Source: an uncultured Acidimicrobiia bacterium (GTDB taxonomy: Bacteria; Actinomycetota; Acidimicrobiia; Spongiisociales; UBA5794). From it: a DNA stretch of 64,000 nt. How positions within the stretch are numbered: the first letter of the stretch is position 1; each line of letters opens with the position of its first letter. This document shows, in pieces, positions 10,157-49,502 of the stretch. Below the pieces are notes generated by a model. It was not told the origin of the DNA. It did no database searches and saw only the letters and a program-made list of their open reading frames with translations. Where the stretch lies: NCBI GenBank assembly GCA_963792405.1, contig CAWBVU010000005.1, forward strand, positions 355,668 to 419,667, in the 5' to 3' direction. The position numbers were made by a program, and so were the translations under genes.

Positions 10157-10252
10157 TCGTAAACCCCCCGGGCAGATTCGGCACCCTCAGGTGGCAATCT
10201 AGTCGGCGCCGCCACTAGCGGCATTGGGGAGGTGACGTTTCGCGGTGTGAAC

Positions 10253-26663: not shown

Positions 26664-27245
26664 ATGCGCTCGCTCGCCCTCATCCTCATGCTCATGCTCG
26701 TCACCGCCTGCACCCAGCAGGCGGACGACGACGTCACCGACGCCACCCTGACGACGACCTCCACAGCCGCGGGCGCCACGACGACCACCGGTGAATCGTC
26801 CACGACCACGACCGGCGGGACGACCACCACCACGACGCGCCCGTCGGGCGGCACGACCACCACCACCCGGGCGACGACGACGACCTCCTCGCCGTCGACG
26901 ACCACGACCACCATCCCCGCGGACAACCTCCCGCCCACCGTGGAGATCCTCGCCCCCGCCAACCTGTCCTCCCACACAGCCGCCTACGACGCAGCCCTCG
27001 GGGACTTCGGCACCTACCTGACGCTTCGAGCGACGGCGAGCGACCCCAACGGTGACCCCGTCGTGATCCGCTGGTCCGCCTCCACCGAGGGCGGACTCGG
27101 CACCGGCACCGAGATCACGGCGTGGTTCTCGACCAATGGCTCGGACGCCACCCAGCCCATCATCACCGCCACCGCCGTCGACCGGTGGGGCGTCACCTCC
27201 TCCGCCTCGGTCAACATCATCGTCTGGATCCCCTCCGACACCTAG
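26664..27245 (+). CDS. Lipoprotein with Thr-rich linker and Ig-like domain
   Basis: Signal peptide with lipobox LVTAC. 50% Thr linker. C-terminal beta-rich domain. Confidence 0.6.
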   Translation: MRSLALILMLMLVTACTQQADDDVTDATLTTTSTAAGATTTTGESSTTTTGGTTTTTTRPSGGTTTTTRATTTTSSPSTTTTTIPADNLPPTVEILAPANLSSHTAAYDAALGDFGTYLTLRATASDPNGDPVVIRWSASTEGGLGTGTEITAWFSTNGSDATQPIITATAVDRWGVTSSASVNIIVWIPSDT

Positions 27246-27535
27246 GCAGGAAGAGCGAGCACAGCGAGCCCTGCCTGTCTCTCCCCGCGGGAGAGACGCG
27301 GAGCGCAGCGACGCAGAGAGGGCCGCACCCTCGCAGACGCGGAGCGAAGCGACGCAGAGAGGGCTTCCTGCTTTGTCTCTCCCCGCGGGAGAGACGCGGA
27401 GCGAAGCGACGCAGAGAGGGCCGCAGTTCTGAGACCTCTCGAAGGACGCCTCCCGCACCGCACTCCCCCCTCTGCCCTCCGGGCATCTCCCCCAAAGGGG
27501 AGAAGGAAGCACAGGGGTCTTGGATCGGATGTGTG
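27244..27535. repeat. Composite hairpin repeat cluster C
   Basis: H1-H1-H2 modules, immediately upstream of the DUF559 gene. Confidence 0.85.
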
Positions 27536-27554: not shown

Positions 27555-27905
27555 ATGCACGATCGAGAACAGCTGCGCAGCTTCGCGAAGGAAATGCGGT
27601 CGGATCCGACCCTCGGCGAGCGGATCTTGTGGGACGAGCTCCGAGCGAGACGACTCGGCGTGAAGGTGCGTCGCCAGCATCCCGTCGGCCCGTTCATCCC
27701 CGACTTCGTCTGCTTCGCACGCCGCCTGGTCATCGAGGTCGACGGCGACTCCCATGAGGATCCGGAGCGGGATGCACGCCGCGATCAGTGGTTCCGGGAC
27801 AACGGCTGGCGTGTCCTGCGGTTCACAGACGACGAGGTGATCGACGAGCTCGACATGGTCCTCGACACCATCTGGCACGCCCTCCACGCCAACGAGGAGA
27901 AGTGA
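27555..27905 (+). CDS. DUF559 endonuclease-domain protein (Vsr/PD-(D/E)xK-like)
   Basis: 116 aa with the DUF559 hallmark ...RQHPVGPFIPDFVCF...LVIEVDGDSHE...WRVLRF. Confidence 0.75.
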   Translation: MHDREQLRSFAKEMRSDPTLGERILWDELRARRLGVKVRRQHPVGPFIPDFVCFARRLVIEVDGDSHEDPERDARRDQWFRDNGWRVLRFTDDEVIDELDMVLDTIWHALHANEEK

Positions 27906-28455
27906 GCGAGCGCAGCGAGCACCGCCCAAGGATGAGGAGTGAGCGCAGCGAGCACCTTGGATGTCTCTCCCCGCGGGAGAGACGCGGAGCGAAGCGACGC
28001 AGAGAGGGCCGCAGTACTGGAAGCGCCGCTCCACAGACGCCTCCCGCGTCGTAGCTCCCCCCTCTGCCCTTCGGGCATCTCCCCCAAAGGGGGAGAAGGA
28101 GAAGGAGATAGACGCCTCCCGCACCGCACTCCCCCCTCTGCCCTTCGGGCATCTCCCCCAAAGGGGGAGAGGGAAGCATGGGTGCGGGCTCTCCCCGCAA
28201 AGGGGAGAGAGAGCGATGGCGAGCGTGCCCCGCAGGGAGAAGACGCGTTCGCGCATCTCGCCCCCAAGGAAGGATGAGCGAGCGAAGCGAGCACCATGCC
28301 GTCTCTCCCCGCGGGAGAGACGCGGAGCGAAGCGACGCAGAGAGGGCCGCAGTACTGGAAGCGCCTCCCACAGACGCCTCCCCGCTCTGCCCTCGGGCAT
28401 CTCCCCCAAAGGGGAGAAGGAAACAGGGTTCGGGCATCTCCCCCAAGAGGGGAGA
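27905..28455. repeat. Composite hairpin repeat cluster D
   Basis: H1/H2/linker modules. Starts at the stop codon of the DUF559 gene and runs to the RBS of the next gene. Confidence 0.85.
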
Positions 28456-28461
28456 AGTAGC

Positions 28462-28869
28462 ATGAGTCGACCGAGTGAGAGGCACGGGATGAGGCTCAAT
28501 GCGATCGGGATCGTGTGTGCGGATGTCGAGGCGTCGCTGCGGTTCTACCGTCTGGTGGGCGTGCCGTTCGGCGAGTTCGATCCCGACAACGGGCACTACG
28601 ACGCCGACCTCGGCGGCTTCCGGCTCATGCTCGACTCGCATGAGGTGATGGAGGCATTCAACCCGCATTTCTCCCCGCCGAAGGGCAACGACCGCATCAG
28701 CCTCGCGGTGGAGTGCGCATCCCCCGCAGCGGTCGACGAGGCCCACGCCGCGGTCGTCGATGCGGGGTTCGTGTCGGTACGGGAGCCCTTCGACGCCTTC
28801 TGGGGACAGCGGTATGCGACCGTGGCGGACCCCGACGGCAACCACGTGGACCTCTACGCCGCCATGTGA
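28462..28869 (+). CDS. VOC/glyoxalase-family protein
   Basis: MSRPSERHGMRLNAIGIVCADVEASLRFYRLVG. GGAGAAG RBS. The real start is inside ORF 27961..28869. Confidence 0.7.
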   Translation: MSRPSERHGMRLNAIGIVCADVEASLRFYRLVGVPFGEFDPDNGHYDADLGGFRLMLDSHEVMEAFNPHFSPPKGNDRISLAVECASPAAVDEAHAAVVDAGFVSVREPFDAFWGQRYATVADPDGNHVDLYAAM

Positions 28870-32919: not shown

Positions 32920-33380
32920 TCCTTCTCCCCCTCCAAGTCGGTGCTCGCTCCGCTCGCTCCCCCTATCCCGTTCTGATCGGTGCTCGCTCCGCTCGCTCAT
33001 CCCTCTCAGTCCCCTCTTCCTTCTCCCCCTTTGGGGGAGATGCCCGAAGGGCAGAGGGGGGAGCCGCGATGCGGCGCTTCGTCCTCTCTGCGTGCTCCCC
33101 CTTCGGGGGAGAGACGAAGCAGGGAACCCTCTCTGCGTCGCTTCGCTCCGCGTCTCTCCCGCGGGGAGAGACGAAGCAGGGAGCCCTCTCTGCGTCGCTT
33201 CGCTCCGCGTCTCTCCCGCGGGGAGAGACGAATCGGTGCTCGCTTCGCTCGCTCATCCCTCTCTCTTCCCTGCGGGGGAGAAGCCCCAGCTCCACTTCCC
33301 TCTCCCCTTTGGGGGAGATGCCCGAAGGGCAGAGGGGGGAGCCGCGACGCGGGAGACACCCTCCGAGCGACGGCCGCTCG
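32920..33380. repeat. Composite hairpin repeat cluster E (inverted orientation)
   Basis: Reverse complements of H2 (cttccttctccccctttgggggagatgcccgaagggcagagggggg) and H1 (gtctctcccgcggggagagac). Confidence 0.85.
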
Positions 33381-35214: not shown

Positions 35215-35712
35215 GTGACACGAACGCCAATGGGCCGGCTCCCCTCTGCCCTCCGGGCACCTCCCCAAAGGGGAGAGGGAAGCAGAGGTACGGGCACCTC
35301 CCCCAGAAGCAAGGATGAGCGAGCGCAGCGAGCCCAATGCTGTCTCTCCCCGCGGGAGAGACGCGGAGCGAAGCGACGCAGAGAGGGCCGCACCCTCGCA
35401 GACGCGGAGCGAAGCGACGCAGAGAGGGCCGCAGTACCGACGACCTCTGGAAGGACGCCTCCCGCACCCCACTCCCCCCTCTGCCCTCCGGGCATCTCCC
35501 CCAAAGGGGAGAAGGAAGCAAGGTGCGGGCACCTCCCGCGAGGAAGGATGAGCGAGCGCAGCGAGCCCAATGCTGTCTCTCCCCGCGGGAGAGACGCGGA
35601 GCGAAGCGACGCAGAGAGGGCCGCACCCTCGCAGACGCGGAGCGAAGCGACGCAGAGAGGGCCGCACCCTCGCAGACGCGGAGCGAAGCGACGCAGAGAG
35701 GGCCGCGGTGCT
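35215..35712. repeat. Composite hairpin repeat cluster F (its 3' end forms the left edge of the duplicated lasso cassette)
   Basis: H2-linker-H1-H1 modules repeated twice. The last 72 bp are also found at the duplication junction (40969-41040). Confidence 0.85.
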
Positions 35713-35729
35713 CCCGCTACGCTGATCGT

Positions 35730-36871
35730 ATGGCTGCTCCCCATCCGCTGTTGGCGCCGTTGATCGCAGGGGAACCCGTGCCGGACGACGCGGTGATCAC
35801 CCTCGACGTGGTGCGATCGGCTGAGGAGCACGGGGTCTCCGCGCTGCTCGACGACGTCCTCACACGGGGCGACTTCGACATCTCACCTCCGCAGGTGAAG
35901 CAGCGCCTCGCCATGCGAGCCCTCGAAGCCGCCGCGGAGAACCATGCCGCACTGATCGCGGTCGGAGAGGTGCTCGACGTCGCCGGTGCGCTCGGCATCG
36001 AGGTCGCCATCGCGAAGGGTGTGGCCGTGGGGTCCCGGTGCTACCCGAACCCCGACCTTCGGCCCACGATCGACGTGGACGTGTTCGCCGACCCCGGGTC
36101 CCTCGACCGCCTCGGCGACCTCGCCCTCGCCCTCGGGGCGTCTGCGCTCGACAAGATGGCGATCGACGCCATGGTCGCCGAAGGCCGCGTCTTCGAGGTG
36201 ACCCTGCCCACCAGCGGCGCCGACGTCGACCTGCACCGTGACCCGATGAACATGGTGCTGCCGTCGACCCGTGAACGGGACCGCTGGGACCGCACGACGA
36301 TGGTCGCCCTCCCGGACGGGACGAAGGTGCGGACCCTGGACCTCGAGGACACGGTGATCCTCGCCCTGCTGCACCTGTTCCGGGACAACTTCGCGATGCT
36401 GCTCCACGTCAACGACGTCCGCCTGATGATCGAGGCGGGCCCCGACTGGGACGAGGTCGAACGACGGGCGGCCGACGACGGCTGGACCGACATCGTCCGC
36501 TACGCCGCCTGGTTCGCCTCCGACACCTTCGGCATGCCGTCGCCCCTCCCCACCGCCATCGCACGGTGGCGCAAGGCGATCATCGACGCCGTCTGGCCCC
36601 GCTCACTGCTGCTGCAGGGGGCCGACAGCGTGGTGCGCAGCCAGCGCCGCCAGTCCGCCCTCTCGCTCCTCACCGTCCGGCCGCACCGAGCGCCCTCGCC
36701 TCCGCCTACGCCAGGCGGCTCTTCCCGTCCCGGACCGTGATCGACCAGCGCGGCGGCGCCTCCGACCTCTCGTACCCCGTGGCCCTCGCCGACTGGCGCC
36801 TCCGGCAGCGGCGGGAGAACCGGGCGATGATCGACGACGGCGGGGACCCGACACCGGAGCCGCCCCTGTGA
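35730..36871 (+). CDS. Nucleotidyltransferase-family protein (NTP_transf_5-like, lasso-cluster associated), copy 1; frameshift near 36680
   Basis: MAAPHPLLAPLIAGEPVPDDAVITLDV... is co-linear with the intact 379-aa copy 2. The C-terminus reads in the frame of ORF 36566..36871. Confidence 0.6.
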
Positions 36872-37122
36872 GGCGATCCGACCACGCCATGGCCCGCGAG
36901 CTCGACGGCGAGATCATCATCCTCGACGTGCCGTCGGGCCGGTACTTCGGGATCAACGACGTGGGCGCCGTGGTGTGGGGGCTGCTCGACGGGACCCACG
37001 ACCGTGACGCCATCGTCGATGCGGTGACCGCCGAGTTCGACGTCGATCGGGACACCGCCGCGGCCGACCTCGATGCGCTCCTCGACCAGCTCGTCGACGC
37101 CGGCCTCGTGGTGGACCCGTGA
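36868..37122 (+). CDS. PqqD-family protein (lasso B1 leader-recognition element), copy 1
   Basis: 84 aa: ELDGEIIILDVPSGRYFGINDVGAVVWGLLDG...IVDAVTAEFDVD. Confidence 0.75.
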   Translation: MRRSDHAMARELDGEIIILDVPSGRYFGINDVGAVVWGLLDGTHDRDAIVDAVTAEFDVDRDTAAADLDALLDQLVDAGLVVDP

Positions 37123-37536
37123 CCCAGGGGTCGTCCACCGTCGGCAGGATCCTCGTGGCACGAGCAGGTGTCCTGCTGACCCGGGTCGCCCTGCGCACCG
37201 CGGGCTTCGCCGCCACCATCCGAGCCCTGTCCGCGCTGCCACGGGTCCTGCACGCCACGACACAGCTCCCGACCCACGATGGGCAGGAGAGATCGCCACG
37301 GCGGACACCGCCAGGCTCGGAGGGACGTGCCTCGACCGGTCCGTGGCCCTGTGGTTCACCATGCGCCAGCACGGCCTCGACGGCGACCTGCGCATCGGCG
37401 TGGCGAGGAACGGTGACACCCTCGACGCCCACGCCTGGGTCGAGTACCAGCGGCGCGGTCCTCAACGACACCGCCGACGTCGCGCGACCGGTTCGCGGTA
37501 TTCGACGACGACCCGACGGACCTGGTGTTCACGTGA
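37119..37536 (+). CDS. Lasso peptidase B2 (transglutaminase-like Cys protease), copy 1, about 3 frameshifts
   Basis: Co-linear with intact copy 2. The catalytic block GTCLDRSVALWFTMRQHGLDGDLRIGVARNGDTLDAHAWVEY reads in the frame of ORF 37073. The stop TGA overlaps the GTG start of the kinase. Confidence 0.55.
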
Positions 37537-38264
37537 CGGCGGCGGCCACCATCGGCGGGGTCCGCTTCGTCATGGACACGCTCCTGATCGGGACGGGGGA
37601 CACCGGGTTCTCCGACCTCGAGCTCGAGGCCCGCTGGTTCGAGGGCGACGCTCCCGATGCGACGATGCTGGCGGCCCCCATGGGCCTCCACCTGTGGATC
37701 GACCACGAGGCCGGCGTCGTGCACCTCCCGGTCCTCGACGACGAGGTGGAGATGCGGGGCTGGCAGCTGCGCCAGGTGGCCCCGACCGTCGCCGCCTTCT
37801 ACGACCGGCTCACCCTCCACGCGTCCGCCGTGTCCGTCGATGGCCGTGTGCTGGCGTTCGTGGCGGGGTCGGGCACCGGCAAGACGACGCTCGCCTGGGC
37901 CCTCGTCAAGGCCGGCGCCGCGGCGATCAGCGACGACCTCCTCCCCATCCGGTTCGACGACCGCCCCGTCGTCCCGACGGACACCGATCGGCTTCCCGTC
38001 GCGGCGCTGTGCTTCCTCGACCGCCACGGCGGCGACCTCGCCGAGTCCACCCTCGAACCCGCGCTCGCCATGCGACGGCACATCGCCAACGGCTTCGGGG
38101 AGCACGGCGAGCCGAGGGTGTGGGGCTTCCAGTTCGACGCCTACCACCGCCTCGTCACCGAGGTCCCCCACGTCGACCTGGTGGTCCCCGACGACCGCGA
38201 GCAGGTGGCATCCGTCGCCGAGCGACTCATCGACCTCGTCCGCACCGGCGGGCTGGGCGGCTGA
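37533..38264 (+). CDS. HPr kinase/phosphorylase-like kinase (lasso tailoring kinase candidate), copy 1
   Basis: 243 aa with P-loop FVAGSGTGKTTLAWALVKAG. Lies inside ORF 37119..38264. Confidence 0.7.
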   Translation: MTAAATIGGVRFVMDTLLIGTGDTGFSDLELEARWFEGDAPDATMLAAPMGLHLWIDHEAGVVHLPVLDDEVEMRGWQLRQVAPTVAAFYDRLTLHASAVSVDGRVLAFVAGSGTGKTTLAWALVKAGAAAISDDLLPIRFDDRPVVPTDTDRLPVAALCFLDRHGGDLAESTLEPALAMRRHIANGFGEHGEPRVWGFQFDAYHRLVTEVPHVDLVVPDDREQVASVAERLIDLVRTGGLGG

Positions 38265-40029
38265 TGGGCGGCCTCGCCGTCGCCGTCGACTGGTCGGAGC
38301 GGCCCGAACCCTCGGCCTTCGCCCCGATGGTGGAGGCGATGGGACACCGCGGCCGTGCAGGCATCCGGACCGCAGATGCGGGTGCGGCGCTGCTGGCGGA
38401 GGCCCGGCTCCCAAGGGACGGGACGGAGGGCTGGCGCATCGCCACCGCAGGCCCGCTCACCCTCGTCGGTGACCTGCGCCTGTGGCACCTCGATGCCCTC
38501 CGCTCGCTGGCAGGGATCGACGACGCCGACCCCCGGATGCTGGCGCTCCACGCCTGGGCGGCCCACGGCGCAGCCATGATGGACGCCGTCGACGGCGACT
38601 TCGCCTTCGCCATCTGGGACGCCGACACCTCCACCCTCTTCGCCGCCAGGGACCGCTTCGGCGCCAAGCCGCTGTGGATCCAACAGACACCCGGCGGCAT
38701 CCGGCTCGCCTCCGGGACCGGCCAGCTCGTCGCCGCGACCGATCCCCGGCCGGGCCCCGACCCGGTGACGGTCGAGCGGTTCCTCCGCGACGAGGTCGCC
38801 TACGACGACCGCTCGTTCCACGAGGGGATCCGCCGCCTCATGCCCGCCCACCACCTCGTCGCCACCGCCGACGGTGTCACCACGACCCGGTATTGGAATC
38901 CCTCGGAGATCCCCGAACGGCCCGCCACCGACGTGCCCGCCACGTTCCGCCGCCTCGTCGTCGACGCCGTGGCGGACCGCCTCGCCGGTTCCATGCGCAC
39001 CGTCAGCGACCTCTCCGGGGGGCTCGACAGCTCATCGATCACCGCCGCCGCCCACGACCTCGTCCCCGATCGCCTCGACGCCGGGCGGTTCGTCACCGTG
39101 TCGGCGATCGTCCCCGGCACGGAGACCGACGAGTCACCATGGATCGCCGCGACGGTCGCGACCCAGCCGTTCGCCCACCGCGACCACACGGTGGGCATCG
39201 GGGACATCGACGACTACGCCGACGACATGGCCACCACCGGCATGCCCGTCGCCCACCACATCCGGGACCTCGCGGTACGCACCGCGGCGATCGCCGTAGA
39301 GGAGGGCGCCGACCTCGTCCTCACCGGCAACGGCGGTGACGAGGTCGCCGACGACCGGTGGATCCTCAGACACCTCCTGCGCACGGGACGGCTGTGGCCA
39401 TGGGGCCGCACCGTCGCCTCGATGGGCGCCCAGTCGCCGTACGCGGCGCGCTGTGGGCGGCCTCCTCGGTCGGCCAGGCGCTCCCACCCCGTGTCCGTCG
39501 GGCGATCCGCGGACAGTGGCGCCGCACGGACACCGAGGGCGCCGACGACAGCCACATGCCTCCCGGTGCCGGCATGCCCCACGACATCGCGTCACGCCTG
39601 CACACCGGACGGGGCCTCCTGGTGCTCGAGTGGCTCGAGGCCATGTACGCCGCCTCCGGCATCGAGGTGTCCCACCCGTACCTCGACCGCAGGATCGTCG
39701 AGTTCGTCGCCTCCCTCCCCGCAACGGCGATACCGGTGGGCATGGCGAACAAGGCGCTCATCAGGGGCGCGTTCCGGGGTGCCCTCCCCGACACGGTGGT
39801 CGACCGGACCGAGAAGGTGACCGGCAACGAGCACATCGACCGGGTCGTCGCGACCCAGGGACCGGCCTTCCTCGAGCGGTTCCCCGACGTGCCGGACCGG
39901 GCAGCCCCGTTCATCGATCCCGACCGGTATCGGGACGAGGTCGCCCGCTTCCACGCCGACGACGCCGATGCGGCAGGCGATCTGTGGCCCGCATGGTCCG
40001 TCATGCTCTGGCTCGACGGCGCACCCTGA
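38264..40029 (+). CDS. Asparagine-synthetase-like lasso cyclase (C protein), copy 1; frameshift near 39445
   Basis: MGGLAVAVDWSERP... Glutamine-amidotransferase-like N-terminal domain (DGDFAFAIWD, RDRFGAKPLW). PP-loop SGGLDSS. Co-linear with copy 2. Confidence 0.7.
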
Positions 40030-40077
40030 GTCGCCCCACCTCAAGATCCATGGGAAATCGGCCGATGTCGGTACGGT

Positions 40078-40248
40078 ATGCAGGGCATGAAGGCCTACCG
40101 AACGCCCGTTCTGGTGGAACTGGGCACGATGTCGCATGTCACTCGCAAGAGTGGCAGGAAGCGTGACATCCAGACCCTCGCCGCCGCACCCAAGACGGTG
40201 CCGCCCATCTGCGACATCATGCCCTGGCTCCCGCCCTGCAACCCCTAG
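40078..40248 (+). CDS. Candidate lasso-peptide precursor (56 aa), copy 1
   Basis: MQGMKAYRTPVLVELGTMSHVTRKSGRKRDIQTLAAAPKTVPPICDIMPWLPPCNP. The leader matches the conserved Y-x-x-P-x-L-x3-G-x5-T motif (YRTPVLVELGTMSHVT). Sits in a 240-bp gap between C and the methyltransferase. Absent from the ORF track (<60 aa). Confidence 0.5.
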   Translation: MQGMKAYRTPVLVELGTMSHVTRKSGRKRDIQTLAAAPKTVPPICDIMPWLPPCNP

Positions 40249-40272
40249 GCGACCTGCCTCCCTGACCCCGAT

Positions 40273-41052
40273 GTGACGACTCGCCCTATCGTGCGGGCCA
40301 TGGCGCACCCGATCACGACCGAGACGTCCGACACCGCCAGCCGCCTGGTCCGCTGGGAGCTCGCCTCGAGCCGCGCCAGCCAGGCACTCCTCGCAGGGGC
40401 ATGGGGCGCCCACGCAGGGATGTGGCTCGGGCTGATGGGCGACGCCGACCTCGCCGCCGCCACCGACGCCTTCTACCGCACCACCCCCAGGTGGCGCAAC
40501 GACGACTTCGTCCGCAGCGGGCTCGCCCCATGGGAGGCCGCCGCCGTCGAGGCCTGGTTCCCACCCTCTGGCCGTGTCCTCGTCCCGTCGGCGGGCGCAG
40601 CCCGGGAGATGCTCCCCCTCGCCGCGATGGGCTACGACGTCGTGGGCTTCGACCCGTCCCCTCCGCTCGTCGACTTCGGGAACCACGTGCTCACGGCGAC
40701 GGGCACTGCGGGGACGCTGCTGCACAGCCGGGCGAGCGACGTCCCCGAGGGCCTGGAGGGGCCGTTCGATGCGGTCCACTTCGGCTGGGGAGGGATCAGC
40801 CACGTCCGCTGGCGAGGGACCCGTGTCGCCATGCTGCGGTCGGTCCGCGCCCTGTGCGCCGACGGCGCCCCGATGCTGATCTCGTTCCTCACCCGGCCGC
40901 CGGACTCCCGCCGCTTCCACGTGGCCCGTTCCGTCGCCTCCGCCGTGGGTCGCCTCCGAGGCGACCGCGCGAAGCGACGCAGAGAGGGCCGCACCCTCGC
41001 AGACGCGGAGCGAAGCGACGCAGAGAGGGCCGCGGTGCTCCCGCTACGCTGA
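40273..41052 (+). CDS. Class I SAM-dependent methyltransferase, copy 1 (3' end replaced by junction/repeat sequence)
   Basis: Identical to copy 2 up to ...VGRLRGDR (~40968). It then reads into the 72-bp repeat fragment (AKRRREGRTLADAERSD...). Confidence 0.6.
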   Translation: MTTRPIVRAMAHPITTETSDTASRLVRWELASSRASQALLAGAWGAHAGMWLGLMGDADLAAATDAFYRTTPRWRNDDFVRSGLAPWEAAAVEAWFPPSGRVLVPSAGAAREMLPLAAMGYDVVGFDPSPPLVDFGNHVLTATGTAGTLLHSRASDVPEGLEGPFDAVHFGWGGISHVRWRGTRVAMLRSVRALCADGAPMLISFLTRPPDSRRFHVARSVASAVGRLRGDRAKRRREGRTLADAERSDAERAAVLPLR

Positions 41053-41056
41053 TCGT

Positions 41057-42196
41057 ATGGCTGCTCCCCATCCGATGTTGGCGCCGTTGATCGCAGGGGA
41101 ACCCGTGCCGGACGACGCGGTGATCACCCTCGACGTGGTGCGATCGGCTGAGGAGCACGGGGTCTCCGCGCTGCTCGACGACGTCCTCACACGGGGCGAC
41201 TTCGACATCTCACCTCCGCAGGTGAAGCAGCGCCTCGCCATGCGAGCCCTCGAAGCCGCCGCGGAGAACCATGCCGCACTGATCGCGGTCGGAGAGGTGC
41301 TCGACGTCGCCGGTGCGCTCGGCATCGAGGTCGCCATCGCGAAGGGTGTGGCCGTGGGGTCCCGGTGCTACCCGAACCCTGACCTTCGGCCCACGATCGA
41401 CGTGGACGTGTTCGCCGACCCCGGGTCCCTCGACCGCCTCGGCGACCTCGCCCTCGCCCTCGGGGCGTCTGCGCTCGACAAGATGGCGATCGACGCCATG
41501 GTCGCCGAGGGCCGCGTCTTCGAGGTGACGCTGCCGACCAGCGGCGCCGACGTCGACCTGCACCGTGACCCGATGAACATGGTGCTGCCGTCCACCCGTG
41601 AACGGGACCGCTGGGACCGCACGACGATGGTCGCCCTCCCGGACGGGACGAAGGTGCGGACCCTGGACCTCGAGGACACGGTGATCCTCGCCCTGCTGCA
41701 CCTGTTCCGTGACAACTTCGCGATGCTGCTCCACGTCAACGACGTCCGCCTGATGATCGAGGCGGGCCCCGACTGGGACGAGGTCGAACGACGGGCGGCC
41801 GACGACGGCTGGACCGACATCGTCCGCTACGCCGCCTGGTTCGCCTCCGACACCTTCGGCATGCCGTCGCCCCTCCCCACCGCCATCGCACGGTGGCGCA
41901 AGGCGATCATCGACGCCGTGTGGCCCCGCTCGCTGCTGCTGCAGGGGGCCGACAGCGTGGTGCGCAGCCAGCGCCGCCAGTCCGCCCTCTCGCTCCTCAC
42001 GTCCGGCCGCACCGGGGCGCTCACCTCCGCCTACGCCAGGCGTGCGTTCCCGTCCCGGACCGTGATCGACCAGCGCGGCGGCGCCTCCGACCTCTCGTAC
42101 CCCGTGGCCCTCGCCGACTGGCGCCTCCGGCAGCGGCGGGAGAACCGGGCGATGATCGACGACGGCGGGGACCCGGCACCGGAGCCGCACCTGTGA
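41057..42196 (+). CDS. Nucleotidyltransferase-family protein (NTP_transf_5-like), copy 2, intact
   Basis: 379 aa continuous ORF. Confidence 0.7.
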   Translation: MAAPHPMLAPLIAGEPVPDDAVITLDVVRSAEEHGVSALLDDVLTRGDFDISPPQVKQRLAMRALEAAAENHAALIAVGEVLDVAGALGIEVAIAKGVAVGSRCYPNPDLRPTIDVDVFADPGSLDRLGDLALALGASALDKMAIDAMVAEGRVFEVTLPTSGADVDLHRDPMNMVLPSTRERDRWDRTTMVALPDGTKVRTLDLEDTVILALLHLFRDNFAMLLHVNDVRLMIEAGPDWDEVERRAADDGWTDIVRYAAWFASDTFGMPSPLPTAIARWRKAIIDAVWPRSLLLQGADSVVRSQRRQSALSLLTSGRTGALTSAYARRAFPSRTVIDQRGGASDLSYPVALADWRLRQRRENRAMIDDGGDPAPEPHL

Positions 42197-42447
42197 GGCG
42201 ATCCGACCACGCCATGGCGCGGGAACTCGACGGCGAGATCATCATCCTCGACGTGCCGTCGGGCCGGTACTTCGGGATCAACGACGTGGGCGCCCTGGTG
42301 TGGGGGCTGCTCGACGGGACCCGCGACCGTGACGCCATCGTCGATGCGGTGACCGCCGAGTTCGACGTCGATCGGGACACCGCCGCGGCCGACCTCGATG
42401 CGCTCCTCGACCAGCTCGTCGACGCCGGCCTCGTGGTGGACCAGTGA
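42193..42447 (+). CDS. PqqD-family protein (B1), copy 2
   Basis: GTG start overlapping the upstream stop. 84 aa. Confidence 0.75.
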   Translation: MRRSDHAMARELDGEIIILDVPSGRYFGINDVGALVWGLLDGTRDRDAIVDAVTAEFDVDRDTAAADLDALLDQLVDAGLVVDQ

Positions 42448-42857
42448 CCCAGCGGTCGTCCACCGTCGGCAGGATCCTCGTGGCACGAGCAGGTGTCCTG
42501 CTGACCAGGGTCGCCCTGCGCACCGCGGGCTTCGCCGCCACGATCCGAGCCCTGTCCGCCATTCCCAGGGTCATGCGCGCCAGCCCGAGCCCCGATCCAC
42601 GGTGGGCAGGTGAGATCGCCACTGCGGCGACCGGCCGGCTCGGGGGGACGTGCCTCGACCGGTCCGTGGCCCTGTGGTTCACCATGCGCCAGCACGGCCT
42701 CGACGGCGACCTGCGCATCGGCGTCGCCCGCTCCGGTGACACCCTCGACGCCCACTCCTGGGTCGAGTACGACGGTGCGGTCCTCAACGACACGGCCGAC
42801 GTCGCCGACCGGTTCGCGGTGTTCGACGACGACCCGACGGACCTGGTGTTCACGTGA
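42444..42857 (+). CDS. Lasso peptidase B2 (transglutaminase-like), copy 2, intact
   Basis: 137 aa with C...H...D triad context (GTCLDRSVALWF, DAHSWVEYDG). Confidence 0.75.
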   Translation: MTQRSSTVGRILVARAGVLLTRVALRTAGFAATIRALSAIPRVMRASPSPDPRWAGEIATAATGRLGGTCLDRSVALWFTMRQHGLDGDLRIGVARSGDTLDAHSWVEYDGAVLNDTADVADRFAVFDDDPTDLVFT

Positions 42858-43585
42858 CGGCGGCGGCCACCATCGGCGGGGTCCGCTTCGTCATGGACAC
42901 GCTGCTGATCGGGACGGGGGACACCGGGTTCTCCGACCTCGAGCTCGAGGCACGCTGGTTCGAGGGCGACGCTCCCGATGCGACGATGCTGGCGGCCCCC
43001 ATGGGCCTCCACCTGTGGATCGACCACGAGACCGGGGTCGTGCACCTCCCGGTCCTCGACGACGAGGTCGAGATGCGGGGCTGGCAGCTGCGCCAGGTGG
43101 CCCCGACCGTCGCCGCCTTCTACGACCGGCTCACCCTCCACGCGTCCGCCGTGTCCGTCGATGGCCGTGTGCTGGCGTTCGTGGCGGGGTCGGGCACCGG
43201 CAAGACGACGCTCGCCTGGGCACTCGTCAAGGCCGGCGCCGCGGCGATCAGCGACGACCTCCTCCCCATCCGGTTCGACGACCGCCCCGTCGTCCCGACG
43301 GACACCGATCGGCTTCCCGTCGCGGCGCTGTGCTTCCTCGACCGCCACGGCGGCGACCTCGCCGAGTCCACCCTCGAACCCGCACTCGCCATGCGACGTC
43401 ACATCGCCAACGGCTTCGGGGAGCACGGTGAGCCGCGGGTGTGGGGCTTCCAGTTCGACGCCTACCACCGCCTCGTCACCGAGGTCCCCCACGTCGACCT
43501 GGTGGTCCCCGACGACCGCGAGCAGGTGGCATCCGTCGCCGAGCGACTCATCGACCTCGTCCGCACCGGCGGGCTGGGCGGCTGA
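42854..43585 (+). CDS. HPr kinase-like kinase, copy 2
   Basis: 243 aa, same P-loop as copy 1. Confidence 0.7.
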   Translation: MTAAATIGGVRFVMDTLLIGTGDTGFSDLELEARWFEGDAPDATMLAAPMGLHLWIDHETGVVHLPVLDDEVEMRGWQLRQVAPTVAAFYDRLTLHASAVSVDGRVLAFVAGSGTGKTTLAWALVKAGAAAISDDLLPIRFDDRPVVPTDTDRLPVAALCFLDRHGGDLAESTLEPALAMRRHIANGFGEHGEPRVWGFQFDAYHRLVTEVPHVDLVVPDDREQVASVAERLIDLVRTGGLGG

Positions 43586-45350
43586 TGGGCGGCCTCGCCG
43601 TCGCCGTCGACTGGTCGGAGCGGCCCGACCCCTCGGCCTTCGCCTCGATGGTGGAGGCGATGGGACACCGCGGCCGTGCAGGCATCCGGACCGCCAATGC
43701 GGGTGCGGCGCTGCTGGCGGAGGCCCGGCTCCCAAGGGACGGGACGGAGGGCTGGCGCATCGCCACCGCAGGCCCGCTCACCCTGGTCGGTGACCTGCGC
43801 CTGTGGCACCTCGATGCCCTCCGCTCGCTGGCAGGGATCGACGACGCCGACCCCCGGATGCTGGCGCTCCACGCCTGGGCGGCCCACGGCGCCGCCATGA
43901 TGGACGCCGTCGACGGTGACTTCGCCTTCGCCATCTGGGACGCCGACACGTCCACCCTCTTCGCCGCCAGGGACCGCTTCGGCGCCAAGCCGCTGTGGAT
44001 CCAACAGACACCCAGCGGCATCCGGCTCGCCTCCGGGACCGGCCAGCTCGTCGCCGCGACCGATCCCCGGCCGGGCCCCGACCCGGTGACGGTCGAGCGG
44101 TTCCTCCGCGACGAGGTCGCCTACGACGACCGCTCGTTCCATTACGGGATCCGCCGCCTCATGCCCGCCCACCACCTCGTCGCCACCGCCGACGGTGTCA
44201 CCACGACCCGGTACTGGGACCCGTCGGAGATCCCCGAACGGCCCGCCACCGACGTGCCCGCCACGTTCCGCCGCCTCGTCGTCGACGCCGTGGCGGACCG
44301 CCTCGCCGGTCCCAGCGCACCGTCAGCGACCTCTCCGGGGGGCTCGACAGCTCGTCGATCACCGCCGCCGCCCACGACCTCGTCCCCGATCGCCTCGACG
44401 CCGGGCGGTTCGTCACGGTGTCGGCGATCGTCCCCGGCACGGAGACCGACGAGTCGCCCTGGATCGCCGCAACGGTCGCGACCCAGCCGTTCGCCCACCG
44501 CGACCACACGGTGGGCATCGGGGACATCGACGACTACGCCGCCGATATGGCCACGACCGGCATGCCCGTCGCCCACCACATCCGGGACCTGGCGGTGCGC
44601 ACCGCGGCGATCGCGGTGGAGGAGGGCGCCGACCTCGTCCTCACCGGCAACGGCGGTGACGAGGTCGCCGATGACCGGTGGGTCCTCGCCCACCTCCTGC
44701 GGGCGGGACGGCTGTGGCCATGGGGCCGCACCGTCGCCTCGATGGGCGCCCAGTCGCCGTACGCGGCGGCGCTGTGGGCGGCCTCCTCGGTCGGCCAGGC
44801 GCTCCCGCCCCGTGTCCGCAGGGCGATCCGCGGACAGTGGCGCCGCTCGGACACCGAGGGCGCCGACGACAGCCACATGCCTCCCGATGCCGGCATGCCC
44901 CACCACGTCGCGTCACGCCTGCACACCGGACGGGGCCTCCTGGTGCTCGAGTGGCTCGAGGCCATGTACGCCGCCTCCGGCATCGAGGTGTCCCACCCGT
45001 ACCTCGACCGCAGGATCGTCGAGTTCGTCGCCTCCCTCCCCGCCACGGCACTACCGGTGGGTGTGGCGAACAAGGCGCTCATCAGGGAGGCGTTTCGGGG
45101 TGCCCTCCCCGACACGGTCGTCGACCGACAGGAGAAGGTGACCGGCAACGAGCACATCGACCGGGTCGTCGCGACCCACGGACCGGCCTTGATCGAGCGG
45201 TTCCCCGACGTGCCGGACCGGGCGGCGCCGTTCATCGATCCTGACCGGTATCGGGACGAGGTCGCCCGCTTCCACGCCGACGACGCCGATGCGGCAGGCG
45301 ATCTGTGGCCCGCATGGTCCGTCATGCTCTGGCTCGACGGCGCACCCTGA
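43585..45350 (+). CDS. Asn-synthetase-like lasso cyclase (C), copy 2; frameshift near 44305
   Basis: N-terminal part in ORF 43441..45141 up to ADRLAG, then continues in ORF 43995..45350. Confidence 0.7.
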
Positions 45351-45398
45351 GTCGCCCCACCTCAAGATCCATGGGAAATCGGCCGATGTCGGTACGGT

Positions 45399-45569
45399 AT
45401 GCAGGGCATGAAGGCCTACCGAACGCCCGTTCTGGTGGAACTGGGCACGATGTCGCATGTCACTCGCAAGAGTGGCAGGAAGCGTGACATCCAGACCCTC
45501 GCCGCCGCACCCAAGACGGTGCCGCCCATCTGCGACATCATGCCCTGGCTCCCGCCCTGCAACCCCTAG
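45399..45569 (+). CDS. Candidate lasso precursor, copy 2 (identical peptide)
   Basis: Same 171-nt ORF as 40078..40248. Confidence 0.5.
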   Translation: MQGMKAYRTPVLVELGTMSHVTRKSGRKRDIQTLAAAPKTVPPICDIMPWLPPCNP

Positions 45570-45593
45570 GCCACCTGCCTCCCTGACCTCGAC

Positions 45594-46440
45594 GTGACGA
45601 CTCGCCCTATCGTGCAGGCCATGGCGCACCCGATCACGACCGAGACAGCCGACACGCCCAGCCGCCTGGTCCGTTGGGAGCTCGCCTCGAGCCGCGCCAG
45701 CCAGGCACTCCTCGCAGGGGCATGGGGCGCCCATGCGGGGATGTGGCTCGGGCTGATGGGCGACGCCGACCTCGCCGCCGCCACCGACGCCTTCTACCGC
45801 ACCACCCCCAGGTGGCGCAACGACGACTTCGTCCGCAGCGGGCTCGCCCCATGGGAGGCCGCCGCCGTCGAGGCCTGGTTCCCACCCTCTGGCCGTGTCC
45901 TCGTGCCCGTCGGCGGGCGCCGCCCGGGAGATGCTCCCCCTCGCCGCCATGGGCTACGACGTCGTGGGCTTCGACCCGTCCCCTCCGCTCGTCGACTTCG
46001 GGAACCACCTGCTCACGGCGACCGGCACCGCCGGGACGCTGCTGCACAGCCGGGCGAGTGACGTCCCCGAGGGCCTGGAGGGCCCGTTCGATGCGGTCCA
46101 CTTCGGCTGGGGAGGGATCAGCCACGTCCGCTGGCGAGGGACCCGCGTCGCCATGCTGCGGTCCGTCCGTGCCCTGTGTGCCGACGGCGCCCCGATGCTG
46201 ATCTCGTTCCTCACCCGGCCGCCGGACTCCCGCCGCTTCCACGTGGCCCGGTCCGTCGCCACCGCCGTGGGACGCCTCCGAGGCGACCGCAGGCCCATCG
46301 AGCTCGGCGACACCGTCGACGGCAGCTTCGACCACTACTTCACCTTCGACGAGATGGAGTCCGAGCTCACCGACGCGGGGTTCACGACCGTGGCGCGGGT
46401 CGCCCAGCCCTACGCCCACGTCGTCGCCACGGCGTCGTGA
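45594..46440 (+). CDS. Class I SAM-dependent methyltransferase, copy 2, full length (282 aa) but with one frameshift near 45905
   Basis: SAM-binding GYDVVGFD motif. The C-terminal 50 aa (RPIELGDTVDGSFDHYFTFDEMESELTDAGF...) are absent from copy 1. Confidence 0.65.
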
Positions 46441-46460: not shown

Positions 46461-48300
46461 ATGGGGGGCTTCGCCGTCGTCATCGACTGGGACCGCCCCG
46501 TCGACCCCCACGCCACCGACCCGATGATGGCCCTCGTCCCGCACCGGGCCACGGGCGGCACCCGCACCCACGTCACGCCCCATGCCGTACTCGCCGAGGG
46601 CCGTACCACGCACCAGGTGGATGGCGGCCCATGGGAGGTCGCCACCCTCGGACCGCTGGCGATCGTCGGCGACATCCGCCTCTTCGACACGGGCCGCCTC
46701 CGCGCCGCGGCAGGCGGCAGTGCGGCCACCGACGGCCTCGACGACCGCCACCTCCTGCTCGCCGCCTACCGGCGCAGGGGCATCGGGTTCCTCGACGCCG
46801 TCGACGGAGACTTCGCCTTCGTCATCTGGGACGACGACTGAACGCAGTGTCCTCGCCGTCAGGGACCGCTTCGCCGTCAAACCGATCTTCTACGAGGAGA
46901 CAGCCACCGGCATCCGCTTCACCTCGGAGGTCAAGCAGCTGGCGGCGACATCACTGCGACCCCCCGAGCCTGACCCGTTGTCACTCGCCGAGTACGTCGA
47001 CCTACGACTTCCGGGAGAAACGCCGCACGTTCTTGACCGGGATTCAGCGCATCCCTGCATCCGGGCGATCATCGCCGCATGGCCACGCGCCCCGGGCGCT
47101 GCGCTACTGGGACCCGACGCCGCCAACCGCCAGCGCATGAGCCATCGAGCCTTCCCCACCTCTTCCGCGAGCACCTCATCGCCGCCGTCGATCGGCGGCT
47201 CGAGACCGTCCAGCCACACGGTCAGCCAGCTCTCGGGCGGTCTCGACTCCTCGTCCATCGCTGCAGCTGCGGCGATCCTCGCATCCCGCGGAGAGCCCCT
47301 GGCGTTCACCACCGTGTCGGCTGTGTACGACTTCCCGTCGATCGACGAGTCGGGGTGGATCGACGACATCGTCGCCAGCCAGCCCTTCCCCCACCACGAC
47401 TTCGTCCCCGAGGTCGCCGACATCGAGCAGTTCGATGCCGACATGTGGACGGTCGATGGACCGCTCGTCGACCCCATCCGCGACATGAAGCACGTCACCG
47501 CTCGAATCGCCGTCCAGCTCGATGCACCCCTCGCCTGACCGGGGCAGGAGGTGACCACCTTCTCTATCAGGCCCGCTACCTGGGCGACATCCTGCGATCC
47601 GGCCACCATCCGCCGCTTCGCCCGGGACACGACCGTCGTGCACGCGCGATGGTCCGGGATGGGGCTGCTGCCGACCCTCTCTGCCCCGGTACGACAGGCC
47701 ACACCGCCGCCGCGTCCGCTCCATTGGGCGAGGGGTCCGCCGCTGCCAGGAGCCGAGCATGCTGGGCAATCCCTCTTCACCGGGGCAATCGAGCAGGCAT
47801 CGGAATCGCGTCGGACGAATCCGAGCACCTCGGCTTTCGCTCAGCAACACAGAACGCCATCGCATCGGATCTGCGCGAACCGCTGGCTCGCATGGACCAA
47901 TGAGACGACAAGCGATGGTCTTTGGCGCGTCATGGAGTCGATCTCAGCCATCCGTATCTCGACCGGGACCTCGCACAGTTCGTCGTTGTCGATCGATCCG
48001 CTCGATCTACCGTTCGACGGCCGGTCGAAGACGCTCGTCCGCCAAGGCTTCGCGGACACGCTCCCGGGCTCGGTTCTCGGTCGTCGACTCACGACATTCG
48101 CCGATGAGTACATGCAGGAGGCGCTGCGTTCCCAGCGCACGGCAGTACCGGGAGTCGATTCGCCGAGCATGCCGCTGCCTGCGGCCCCGGCCTCATCGAC
48201 GAGGACGCCTACCGAAGCGCACTCAGCGAGTTCGACAGCGCGTGCTCCCGCCCAGAAGATGTGCACGCCTCTGCGTTCCTGGCGGGCCATGGCATGTGAT
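46461..48300 (+). pseudogene. Third, diverged Asn-synthetase-like (lasso cyclase-like) gene, heavily frameshifted
   Basis: MGGFAVVIDWDRPVDPHA...DGDFAFVIWDDD. Then RDRFAVKPIFYEE, SGGLDSSSIAAAA, HLLYQARYLGDILRSG and HPYLDRDLAQFVV lie in at least five different frames. AGGAG RBS. About 35% identity to the C copies. Confidence 0.5.
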
Positions 48301-48399
48301 GGTTGACGCTTGGCGCATACAGGGCCGCCGACGACGTAGGATCCCTGCCCATGGAGTCGAAACCCAAGAGTGCAGGATCGACGCCGCGGGCATACACGC

Positions 48400-49502
48400 C
48401 GCCCCGGCTTCGCCACTTGGGGCTCATGTCGGCGGTCACTCGGAAGACTGGACCTAGGGAACGACGGCCAACTGCCTCGACCCAAGCGGCCAGCCCTAGG
48501 CGCGCCCACCCGACGAGGGTCAGGCTGCGATGACCTCGCCAAGAGGTTGCGATGCGCGCGAACGCCGAACGACCCATCCGGGAGAGTCGTCGGCTCCGTC
48601 GGCACCGTCACGGTCCGGATCGACCCCGACGACACCGAGCGCAGGTCCCATGTCAGCGCCACGGCGTCACCGATCCCCAGAGTGTCCGACAGCACGATCG
48701 TGTCGTCGAGCTGCTCGGCGAGGCCGGCCAGTTCCACCGGTGACCGCACCGTCTTGAGCCGATCCAACAGCGCGAACATCAGCTCCTGCTGACGGGCCAC
48801 TCGCACGGCGTCACCGGTCTCGGCCTGGAACCGCCACTCGCCGTCGACGAGTTCCTGCGTGCGCCGGGACCGGATGTAGGCGAGGGCGTGCTCGCCGTCG
48901 ATCATGCGAGCACCCTGCGGGCACGAGGTCGTAGCCTCCCTCACGCAGGGCGTTTCCGAGCAGATCTGCACGCCGCCGACCGAGTCGACCATCTCGACGA
49001 GCGCATCGAACTTCATCAGGGCGAAGTGGTCGATCGGTACGCCCGAGAAGTCCTCGACCGCGACGGCCACCAGCTCGGCGCCGTTCACCTCGCCCGCACC
49101 CCTCCAGGGTGCGGTCCAGCTTCGTCTCACGACCGGTGCACGGGTCGACGACGACCAGTCGCGGGGAAACGAGACGATCGTCGGTGACCGTTCCCCTCCT
49201 CGGGGAGGAGGTAGAGCAGCACGGCGTCGGCGAACGCCGTCACCTGCTTGTGTAGTCGTTGGCGACGTCTCGTCGGAGCCGACCACGAGGACGGATTGGT
49301 ACGTCGTCGGGGGAACGGTGGCGGTGGCTCCCGCCAGCGTGGTCGTCGACGGAAGGTCTCGACGTGCCTCCTGAAGATCGAAGTCGACACGCTCGACCGA
49401 GTTCCATGCCACGAGTGCCCTCACGCCTTGGTATCCCACGAACGGCGACGAACACGGCCAGAAGGCACCCACTGCAAGCAGGATCTTCCTGCGTCTCGAC
49501 AC
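48400..49502 (-). CDS. LCP (LytR-CpsA-Psr) family protein (C-terminal boundary uncertain)
   Basis: N-terminal TM anchor, then SVLVVGSDETS...IVSFPRD...GVPIDHFALMKF...GEHALAYIRSRR. ORF 47841..49502 runs past the domain, probably through spurious read-through. Possible compensating frameshifts around 49250. Confidence 0.6.

What the first reader, a model, noticed from the sequence alone, without database searches (positions are those of the whole stretch)
40900..41100. Duplication junction lies inside the methyltransferase gene and uses a 72-bp piece of the hairpin repeat; internal mosaic divergence between copies
The copy-1 methyltransferase is identical to copy 2 up to ...RLRGDR. It then switches into sequence identical to the last 72 bp of repeat cluster F (35636-35707), followed by the start of copy 2. 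This is the signature of a tandem duplication whose left breakpoint fell in the repeat. Only copy 2 keeps a full-length methyltransferase. Within B2, the roughly 90 nt around 37220-37320 (copy 1) versus 42550-42650 (copy 2) are only about 75% identical while the flanks are about 99% identical. That suggests gene conversion or recombination with a third allele.
Basis: seen in the sequence. Interest (0 to 1): 0.55.

Follow-up and report, generated by a model that had tools for sequence, protein, structure and literature searches.

The report
Tandem duplication of lasso-peptide operon
A 5.3-kb operon for making a lasso peptide sits twice, head to tail, with the join cutting off the end of a methyltransferase gene; this is an ordinary duplication, except that the two copies look like separately evolved alleles, so an assembly error is not excluded.

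Summary
Copy 1 (35642-40968) and copy 2 (40969-46290) are direct, abutting repeats, 96.96% identical. The join at 40968|40969 is blunt, with no microhomology. Its left side is codon 232 of a roughly 281-codon methyltransferase (...RLRGDR). Its right side is base 10 of a 41-nt unit in the intergenic repeat array, so 65 nt of repeat are carried over, not 72.

The unit is a whole lasso-peptide operon: nucleotidyltransferase, PqqD/B1, B2 protease, HPr-kinase-like protein, cyclase, precursor and methyltransferase. Three relatives (about 70% nt identity) carry it once, followed by a second cyclase and precursor.

The B2 patch is real: 72% identity over 87 columns against 97.2% elsewhere. The in-window third cyclase is not the donor.

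Two things change the reading.
- Differences fall mostly on third codon positions (40/17/98; dN/dS 0.17), even in the truncated methyltransferase (0.05). The copies therefore did not simply diverge in place after the truncation.
- Frameshifts are as frequent in flanking genes as in the copies. They probably reflect consensus quality, not operon decay.

The copies were either joined as already-diverged alleles or patched by recombination. A concatenation of two strain haplotypes by the assembler cannot be excluded without reads. Low novelty.

The parts
35236..35707 (+). It has two composite elements of about 190 nt (35241-35433 and 35476-35666, 95% alike). It ends in 41-nt units at 35592-35632, 35633-35673 and 35674-35706. 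The left breakpoint of the duplication is base 10 of the second unit.
35642..40968 (+). Copy 1 of the duplicated unit (5327 nt).
40969..46290 (+). Copy 2 of the duplicated unit (5322 nt).
40963..40974 (+). Novel join GACCGC|GCGAAG at 40968|40969. It is blunt, with no shared base between the methyltransferase parent (46285-46290) and the repeat parent (35642-35647).
40969..41033 (+). 65-nt remnant of the repeat array (1.6 units), carried in front of copy 2. It is 100% identical to 35642-35706.
40273..41052 (+). Copy-1 methyltransferase. It is truncated after residue 232 (...RLRGDR) and reads on through the repeat remnant for 27 foreign codons (AKRRREGRTLADAERSDAERAAVLPLR*). It stops 4 nt before the copy-2 nucleotidyltransferase start.
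45594..46440 (+). Copy-2 methyltransferase. It reaches the natural stop, but as assembled it is split by an extra G at 45905.
35730..36871 (+). Copy-1 nucleotidyltransferase (PF14907). It goes out of frame by a net +2 in a patch of four indels at 36673-36720, about codon 315.
41057..42196 (+). Copy-2 nucleotidyltransferase (PF14907, E 4e-31), intact at 379 aa.
36868..37122 (+). Copy-1 B1 (PqqD-type recognition element), intact. It differs at 3 aa from copy 2.
42193..42447 (+). Copy-2 B1 (PF05402, E 3e-22), intact.
37119..37536 (+). Copy-1 B2 leader peptidase (transglutaminase-like). It is out of frame between about 37258 and about 37484, from two extra bases at each end of that stretch. It contains the 72%-identity patch at 37235-37321.
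42444..42857 (+). Copy-2 B2 (PF13471, E 9e-19), intact at 137 aa.
37533..38264 (+). Copy-1 HPr-kinase-like protein, intact. It differs from copy 2 at 1 aa and 10 nt.
42854..43585 (+). Copy-2 HPr-kinase-like protein (weak PF07475 match), intact.
38264..40029 (+). Copy-1 lasso cyclase (asparagine-synthase-like), with a single frame break at 39447 where a G is missing.
43585..45350 (+). Copy-2 lasso cyclase (PF13537 + PF00733), with a single frame break at 44314 where a base is missing.
40087..40248 (+). Copy-1 precursor peptide A1: MKAYRTPVLVELGTMSHVTRKSGRKRDIQTLAAAPKTVPPICDIMPWLPPCNP. It is identical to copy 2.
45408..45569 (+). Copy-2 precursor peptide A1 (same peptide as copy 1).
46461..48300 (+). 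Second-type cyclase (orthologue of the 605-aa cyclase of L003). It lies outside the duplication and is broken in several frames as assembled.
48351..48533 (+). Second-type precursor-like ORF (…AYTPPRLRHLGLMSAVTRKTGPRE…), matching the 43-aa ORF of L003.

Best explanation
The genome carries a real head-to-tail duplication of a complete 5.3-kb lasso-peptide operon.

How it formed: a homology-independent (end-joining or template-switch type) join connected a break in codon 232 of the methyltransferase gene to a break 88 nt upstream of the operon's first gene. That second break lies inside a 41-nt unit of the intergenic repeat array.

Consequences:
- Copy 1 ends in a truncated methyltransferase fused to 27 repeat-encoded codons.
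- Copy 2 keeps only 88 nt of its original upstream DNA, so it is probably transcribed by read-through from copy 1 (inferred).
- The precursor gene and all maturation genes are doubled.

The 3% difference between the copies did not arise by mutation in place. It consists of mostly synonymous, clustered differences of the kind seen between alleles of related strains. Two routes would produce this. The join may have united two already diverged alleles, for example through integration of a circularised fragment from a related strain. Alternatively, a young duplication may later have been patched by homologous recombination with related alleles. The 87-nt B2 tract would be the most divergent such import.

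Shown: the join, the gene content, single copy in relatives, the codon-position pattern and the patchiness. Inferred: the joining mechanism, the source of the divergence and the transcription of copy 2.
For: - Exact abutting direct repeat and blunt join.
- Operon content from Pfam and from orthologues.
- L001, L002 and L003 are colinear and single-copy, with methyltransferase followed by the second cyclase. The arrangement in the window is therefore derived.
- The 158 substitutions fall 40/17/98 on codon positions 1/2/3. Overall dS is 0.067, dN 0.0115, ratio 0.17. The kinase-like gene and the first 314 codons of the nucleotidyltransferase gene give 0.04. The truncated methyltransferase part gives 0.05 (P = 4e-4 against neutral drift of copy 1). 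The differences are therefore real evolutionary variants, not consensus noise.
- Derived states are balanced between the copies, 52 vs 54.
- Differences are clustered, with identical runs of 329 and 304 nt next to a tract of 72% identity.
Against: - No reads, so the join rests on one assembly.
- An exact search for the join in JGI metagenome contigs found nothing, so there is no independent sighting.
- The assembly's consensus is visibly imperfect: about 7 frame breaks per 8.5 kb in flanking conserved genes.
- A 5.3-kb perfect tandem repeat is normally unstable (general knowledge), so long persistence is unexpected.
- Both proposed sources of the divergence need events beyond the duplication itself.
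- No donor allele for the B2 tract was found.
Confidence: 0.5

Rival explanations
1. Assembly artefact. The sample held two strains whose operons differ by about 3%. A chimeric long read or a mis-resolved graph path placed one strain's version after the other's. Each copy was then polished by its own strain's reads. There is only one operon per genome, and the methyltransferase is not truncated in any cell.
For: - The differences look allelic: dN/dS is 0.17 overall and 0.05 in the supposedly dead methyltransferase fragment.
- The join is blunt with no microhomology, as an arbitrary read-end join would be.
- One end lies in a highly repeated array, present 22 times in the window, where overlaps are ambiguous.
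- Consensus quality is low across the region.
- The closest relatives come from metagenome assemblies, one of them labelled a MAG.
- All relatives are single-copy.
Against: - A bubble of two haplotypes would normally be collapsed or split, not chained, and a novel join needs supporting reads.
- The two copies carry different frame breaks and a 72% tract, which also fits true paralogues.
- Nothing in the sequence positively shows a second strain.
Confidence: 0.35
2. An old in-place duplication followed by ordinary mutational divergence. Copy 1 decays as a pseudo-operon (truncated methyltransferase, frameshifted nucleotidyltransferase, B2 and cyclase) while copy 2 stays functional.
For: - Copy 1 has more broken genes than copy 2 as assembled: nucleotidyltransferase, B2, cyclase and methyltransferase, against cyclase and methyltransferase.
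- The copies differ by 3%.
Against: - Derived changes are balanced, 52 vs 54, not concentrated in copy 1.
- Third-position bias and low dN/dS hold in copy 1's broken or truncated genes.
- Frame breaks are no denser in the copies (6 per 10.6 kb) than in flanking conserved genes (about 7 per 8.5 kb). They are better read as consensus indels.
- The B2 tract (28% divergent) far exceeds dS 0.067.
Confidence: 0.08
3. A repeat-mediated (homologous, unequal crossing-over) duplication between two copies of the intergenic repeat.
For: One endpoint lies in the repeat array. The methyltransferase sequence around 46278-46295 (CCGAGGCGACCGCAGG) loosely resembles the repeat's GCGAAGCGACGCAGAG by eye.
Against: - No repeat copy exists at or near 46290. 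The nearest motif matches are all at or below 41033.
- The resemblance is out of register with the actual join, which retains both GCGACCGC and GCGAAGCGACGC.
- No microhomology at the join.
Confidence: 0.03

Closest known systems
RecA-independent 'short-junction' tandem duplications in bacteria, described in Salmonella/E. coli, some with endpoints in REP elements (from my own knowledge of the work of Roth, Reams and colleagues; not checked here)
   Same: A direct head-to-tail duplication of a few kb with a single novel join. One endpoint lies in a short, hairpin-rich intergenic repeat. A truncated or fused gene sits at the join.
   Different: - Only one endpoint lies in a repeat.
- The join has no microhomology.
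- The copies are 3% diverged, with an allelic (purifying-selection) pattern. Such duplications are normally near-identical and transient.
False duplications in assemblies caused by haplotype or strain heterogeneity (general knowledge of long-read and metagenome assembly)
   Same: Two adjacent copies differ by a few percent, and the differences look like natural alleles. The surrounding consensus is of modest quality.
   Different: Such artefacts are usually diagnosed from read depth and spanning reads, which are not available here. The sequence alone neither shows nor excludes it.
Lasso-peptide clusters with a tailoring kinase and nucleotidyltransferase (paeninodin/pseudomycoidin type) or with a methyltransferase (lassomycin-like). 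Reviewed in PMC9266682; pseudomycoidin in PMC6993621.
   Same: - Split B1 (PqqD) and B2 (transglutaminase-like) genes.
- An asparagine-synthase-like cyclase.
- An HPr-kinase-like gene and a PF14907 nucleotidyltransferase-like gene, as with PsmK/PsmN.
- A SAM-methyltransferase-like gene.
- A precursor whose leader fits Y-x-x-P-x-L-x3-G-x5-T-x.
   Different: - The described examples are from Bacillota or Actinomycetes. The nearest named relative here is an Acidimicrobiia MAG.
- The ancestral cluster has two cyclases and two precursors.
- The predicted core starts with Lys and does not end in Ser, the residue phosphorylated in pseudomycoidin.
- No chemistry was tested.

Membership tests
Direct tandem segmental duplication | Two adjacent copies in the same orientation with no spacer, plus one novel join linking the unit's end to its start | tested here: met
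   35642-40968 and 40969-46290, 96.96% identical. The join was resolved base by base.
Direct tandem segmental duplication | The unit is single-copy in related genomes, so the arrangement is derived | tested here: met
   L001, L002 and L003 are colinear and single-copy.
Direct tandem segmental duplication | The join is physically present in the DNA (spanning reads, depth, or an independent assembly) | not testable with these tools
   No reads were available. An exact search for the join in JGI metagenome contigs found nothing. The source contig could not be retrieved.
Homology- or repeat-mediated (unequal crossing-over) duplication | The same repeat, or at least microhomology, at both parental breakpoints | tested here: not met
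   No repeat motif beyond 41033. No shared bases at the join.
Assembly over-expansion of a single locus (identical copies) | The copies are identical or differ only by random consensus noise | tested here: not met
   149 mismatches with a 40/17/98 codon-position bias and dN/dS 0.17.
Strain-haplotype concatenation artefact | Per-copy depth is about half the flank depth, and no genuine read spans the join | not testable with these tools
   Only indirect hints: an allelic-type divergence pattern and low consensus quality.
Gene conversion from the paralogous cyclase in the window | Copy-specific variants match the paralogue more often than background | tested here: not met
   The third cyclase matches copy 1 at 16 differing sites, copy 2 at 25 and neither at 23. 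Background identity is 56%.
Lasso-peptide biosynthetic gene cluster | PqqD-type B1, transglutaminase-like B2 and an asparagine-synthase-like cyclase, adjacent to one another | tested here: met
   PF05402 E 3e-22, PF13471 E 9e-19, PF13537 E 1e-13 plus PF00733 E 5e-30. The cyclase is frame-broken as assembled.
Lasso-peptide biosynthetic gene cluster | A short precursor with Thr at the penultimate leader position and Asp/Glu at core position 7-9 | tested here: met
   By inspection of ...AYRTPVLVELGTMSHVTR|KSGRKRD7... It is conserved in L003 (KSGQRRD). The cleavage site is inferred, not shown.
Lasso-peptide biosynthetic gene cluster | A threaded lariat product | not testable with these tools
   Needs expression and MS/NMR.

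The most novel reading that the evidence does not exclude
The tandem pair is a natural 'hetero-allelic' duplication. A cell captured a second, 3%-diverged allele of an entire RiPP operon from a related strain and placed it beside its own in one step. The highly conserved, hairpin-rich intergenic repeat served as the break or entry point. These repeats would then act as hotspots for operon-scale cassette gain in this Acidimicrobiia-related lineage.
Probability: 0.12. Interest if true: 0.5.

Novelty: new member of a known kind. Interest (0 to 1): 0.25.

Why it matters
If real, this is a clean natural example of how a whole peptide-antibiotic operon is doubled by a homology-free join. It creates a truncated fusion gene and doubles precursor dosage. 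The sequence signature shows that the two copies have separate histories. That bears on how RiPP clusters expand and on the role of intergenic repeats as fragile sites.

In practice it is also a caution. In long-read metagenome assemblies, a 'diverged tandem duplication' with allelic-type differences and widespread frame breaks should be checked against reads before it is counted as biology or as pseudogenisation.

Tried and rejected
1. **Finding the source contig or a same-species relative.** Exact-protein look-ups failed for the window's nucleotidyltransferase and for both B1 copies, and for the 100%-identical database entries P0001/P0026, which sit on one 451-kb contig. The GTDB genome scan returned only a 52%-identical Acidimicrobiia MAG. 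The nearest other protein is 81% identical, on a 1.7-kb contig.
2. **An independent sighting of the join.** An exact 24-mer across 40968|40969 had 0 hits in JGI metagenome contigs. A degenerate pattern for the precursor motif CD(I/F)MPWLPPCN also had 0 hits.
3. **Gene conversion from the third cyclase.** Rejected.
4. **Hairpin-driven breakage.** DNA folds of the repeat end (35540-35720, z = -1.6) and of the methyltransferase breakpoint (46240-46340, z = -1.1) are not unusually stable. The break is not at an element boundary.
5. **A known RNA family for the repeat.** Nothing reached the gathering score.
6. **Promoter and terminator scans around both upstream regions.** Nothing usable.
7. **Two- and three-state HMM segmentation into 'imported blocks'.** It did not give clean kb-scale blocks. 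Instead it found a 1.2% background plus many tracts of about 10 nt at about 21% divergence.
8. **Reading the frame breaks as operon-specific decay.** Rejected, because flanking genes are equally affected.

Full report
**What is in the sequence.**

The window is GC-rich (67.7%). Self-comparison of 34-48 kb gives one dominant alignment, 35642-40968 against 40969-46290. It is 96.96% identical over 5331 columns, with 149 mismatches and 13 single-base gaps. The copies are direct and touch each other.

I set the three relevant sequences side by side: upstream of copy 1, the join, and downstream of copy 2. This fixes the join at 40968|40969.
- To the left, the join follows the copy-2 methyltransferase up to 46290 (...GGACGCCTCCGAGGCGACCGC, ...RLRGDR).
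- To the right, it follows 35642 onward (GCGAAGCGACGCAGAGAGGGCCGC...).
- The bases next to the join differ in the two parents on both sides, so there is no microhomology.

The repeat-derived piece is 65 nt (35642-35706 = 40969-41033), not 72. That is 1.6 units of a 41-nt repeat, and the break falls at base 10 of a unit. It lies inside the conserved core of the element, not at its edge.

**What the unit encodes.**

Pfam scans and orthologues give this order:
- a PF14907 nucleotidyltransferase-like gene;
- a PqqD-type B1;
- a transglutaminase-like B2;
- an HPr-kinase-like gene;
- an asparagine-synthase-like cyclase;
- a 53-aa precursor, MKAYRTPVLVELGTMSHVTR|KSGRKRD...PWLPPCNP, identical in both copies;
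- a SAM-methyltransferase-like gene.

This is a lasso-peptide operon of the kind that carries kinase, nucleotidyltransferase or methyltransferase tailoring genes (literature: PMC9266682, PMC6993621).

After copy 2 come a second-type cyclase (46461-48300) and a second precursor-like ORF (48351-48533). The surrounding genes are for the cell envelope and polysaccharides: LytR_cpsA_psr, Wzz/P-loop, an ABC exporter, epimerases and an aminotransferase.

**Relatives.**

Three related loci were recovered:
- L003, a JGI metagenome contig of 432 kb;
- L002, an ENA contig of 2.7 Mb;
- L001, an Acidimicrobiia MAG.

They are about 70% identical in DNA and syntenic with the window from the ABC exporter to the downstream LytR gene. 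Each carries the operon once, in the order N-B1-B2-K-C-A1-MT-C2-A2. The single copy is therefore ancestral, and the window's arrangement is derived. The right breakpoint truly lies inside the methyltransferase.

The 49 residues that copy 1 loses are the best-conserved part of that protein: 71% identity to L003, against 52% for the first 232 residues. Copy 1's methyltransferase instead reads 27 codons through the repeat remnant. It stops 4 nt before the copy-2 nucleotidyltransferase start.

**The mosaic divergence.**

At 37235-37321 there are 24 differences in 87 columns (72.4% identity), against 97.2% elsewhere. P is about 2e-16.

Differences are clustered throughout:
- 60 gaps of 5 nt or less, against 24.8 +/- 4.2 expected;
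- identical runs of 329 and 304 nt;
- many adjacent double substitutions.

The tract's 28% divergence far exceeds the synonymous divergence between the copies (dS 0.067). Relaxed constraint cannot explain that, so an imported or converted tract is the natural reading. The third cyclase in the window is not a donor: it matches 16 copy-1 variants, 25 copy-2 variants and neither at 23 sites, against a 56% background. No donor was found.

**Two results that change the interpretation.**

First, the substitutions between the copies fall 40/17/98 on codon positions 1/2/3. The Nei-Gojobori estimates are dS 0.067 and dN 0.0115, a ratio of 0.17. The ratio is 0.04 for the kinase-like gene and for the first 314 codons of the nucleotidyltransferase gene. 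It is 0.05 for the methyltransferase segment just before the join, where dS is highest at 0.133.
- These are real evolutionary variants shaped by purifying selection.
- If copy 1's methyltransferase had been a truncated relic since the duplication, about half or more of the changes there should be non-synonymous. Observing 2 of 15 has P = 4e-4.
- Derived states, polarised with the three relatives, are balanced at 52 vs 54.

The copies therefore did not simply diverge in place after the truncating event.

Second, the many frame breaks are not specific to the operon. Against the intact L003 orthologues, the flanking genes are broken as follows: GDSL lipase once, the 711-aa LytR once, the P-loop/Wzz gene twice, the ABC exporter once and the epimerase twice. 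That is about 7 per 8.5 kb. The two copies have 6 per 10.6 kb. Together with the very low dN/dS, this points to consensus indels in a long-read assembly rather than to decay of the operon.

So the statement that only copy 2 keeps a full-length methyltransferase is probably right biologically. It is not literally true of the sequence as given, because of the extra G at 45905.

**Explanations.**

*Best (0.5): a real tandem duplication made by a homology-free join.* The 3% divergence was brought in, not accumulated in place. Either the join united two already diverged alleles, or recombination with related alleles later patched a young duplication.

*Main rival (0.35): an assembler concatenated two strain haplotypes.* The following all fit this rival:
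- the allelic-type divergence;
- the blunt join;
- an endpoint in a 22-copy repeat;
- the modest consensus quality;
- the metagenomic origin of the relatives.

Nothing in the sequence can exclude it. An exact search for the join in JGI metagenome contigs found nothing, and the source contig was not retrievable.

*Repeat-mediated unequal crossing-over is rejected (0.03).* There is no repeat and no microhomology at the right breakpoint.

**Verdict.**

This is a known kind of event affecting a new member of a known biosynthetic family. Its interest lies mainly in the separate histories of the two copies and in the warning about assembly artefacts. Reads would settle the question in an afternoon.

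Noticed in passing
window 18572-19017, 22592-23129, 27244-27516, 27882-28464, 33009-33355 (- strand), 35236-35707; L001 76-122, 771-817, 2960-3006, 9058-9104; L002 8227-8273; L003 6292-6338: The intergenic repeat has a 47-49-nt core, GTCTCTCCCCGCGGGAGAGACGCGGAGCGAAGCGACGCAGAGAGGGC(CG): a 9-bp hairpin plus a tail. The core is 100% identical in three relatives whose genes are only about 70% identical in DNA. It occurs at least 22 times in this window, almost always on the + strand. There was no Rfam match. Such conservation suggests either a strongly constrained function or a recently spreading mobile element.
   Followed up: partly
window 24166-24282, ~25680, ~30080, ~30288, ~32150, ~33700, ~34190: Frame breaks relative to the intact orthologues of L003 in flanking genes: GDSL lipase, 711-aa LytR, P-loop/Wzz, ABC exporter and epimerase. 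That is about one per 1.2 kb, so the assembly's consensus probably carries indel errors region-wide.
   Followed up: partly
window 38264-40248 and 46461-48533; L003 12541-17624: The ancestral cluster has two cyclases (593 and 605 aa in L003, about 40% identical) and two different precursors. Both predicted cores start with Lys (KSG...D7). The A1 core is long, carries two Cys and ends in ...PWLPPCN(P). This is an unusual lasso architecture for a lineage near Acidimicrobiia.
   Followed up: partly
window 46461-48300: The second-type cyclase is 71% identical to the L003 orthologue over its first 126 residues. It then changes frame several times and has an in-frame stop near 47536. That is much worse than its neighbours, so it may be a true pseudogene.
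   Followed up: partly
window 8756-9899 (- strand ORF 7016-10186, 1057 aa): Intragenic tandem repeats with a period of about 321-324 nt (92-95% identical) inside a large ORF whose C-terminal part resembles LytR. A repeated protein domain array is likely.
   Followed up: no
copy 1 / copy 2, e.g. 38374-75, 39498-99, 39729-30, 39741-42, 39767-68, 39870-71, 40326-27, 40335-36: An excess of adjacent double substitutions between the copies (at least 8 doublets among about 150 differences), including a CG/GC swap. This could reflect multi-nucleotide mutation, micro-conversion or consensus artefacts.
   Followed up: no
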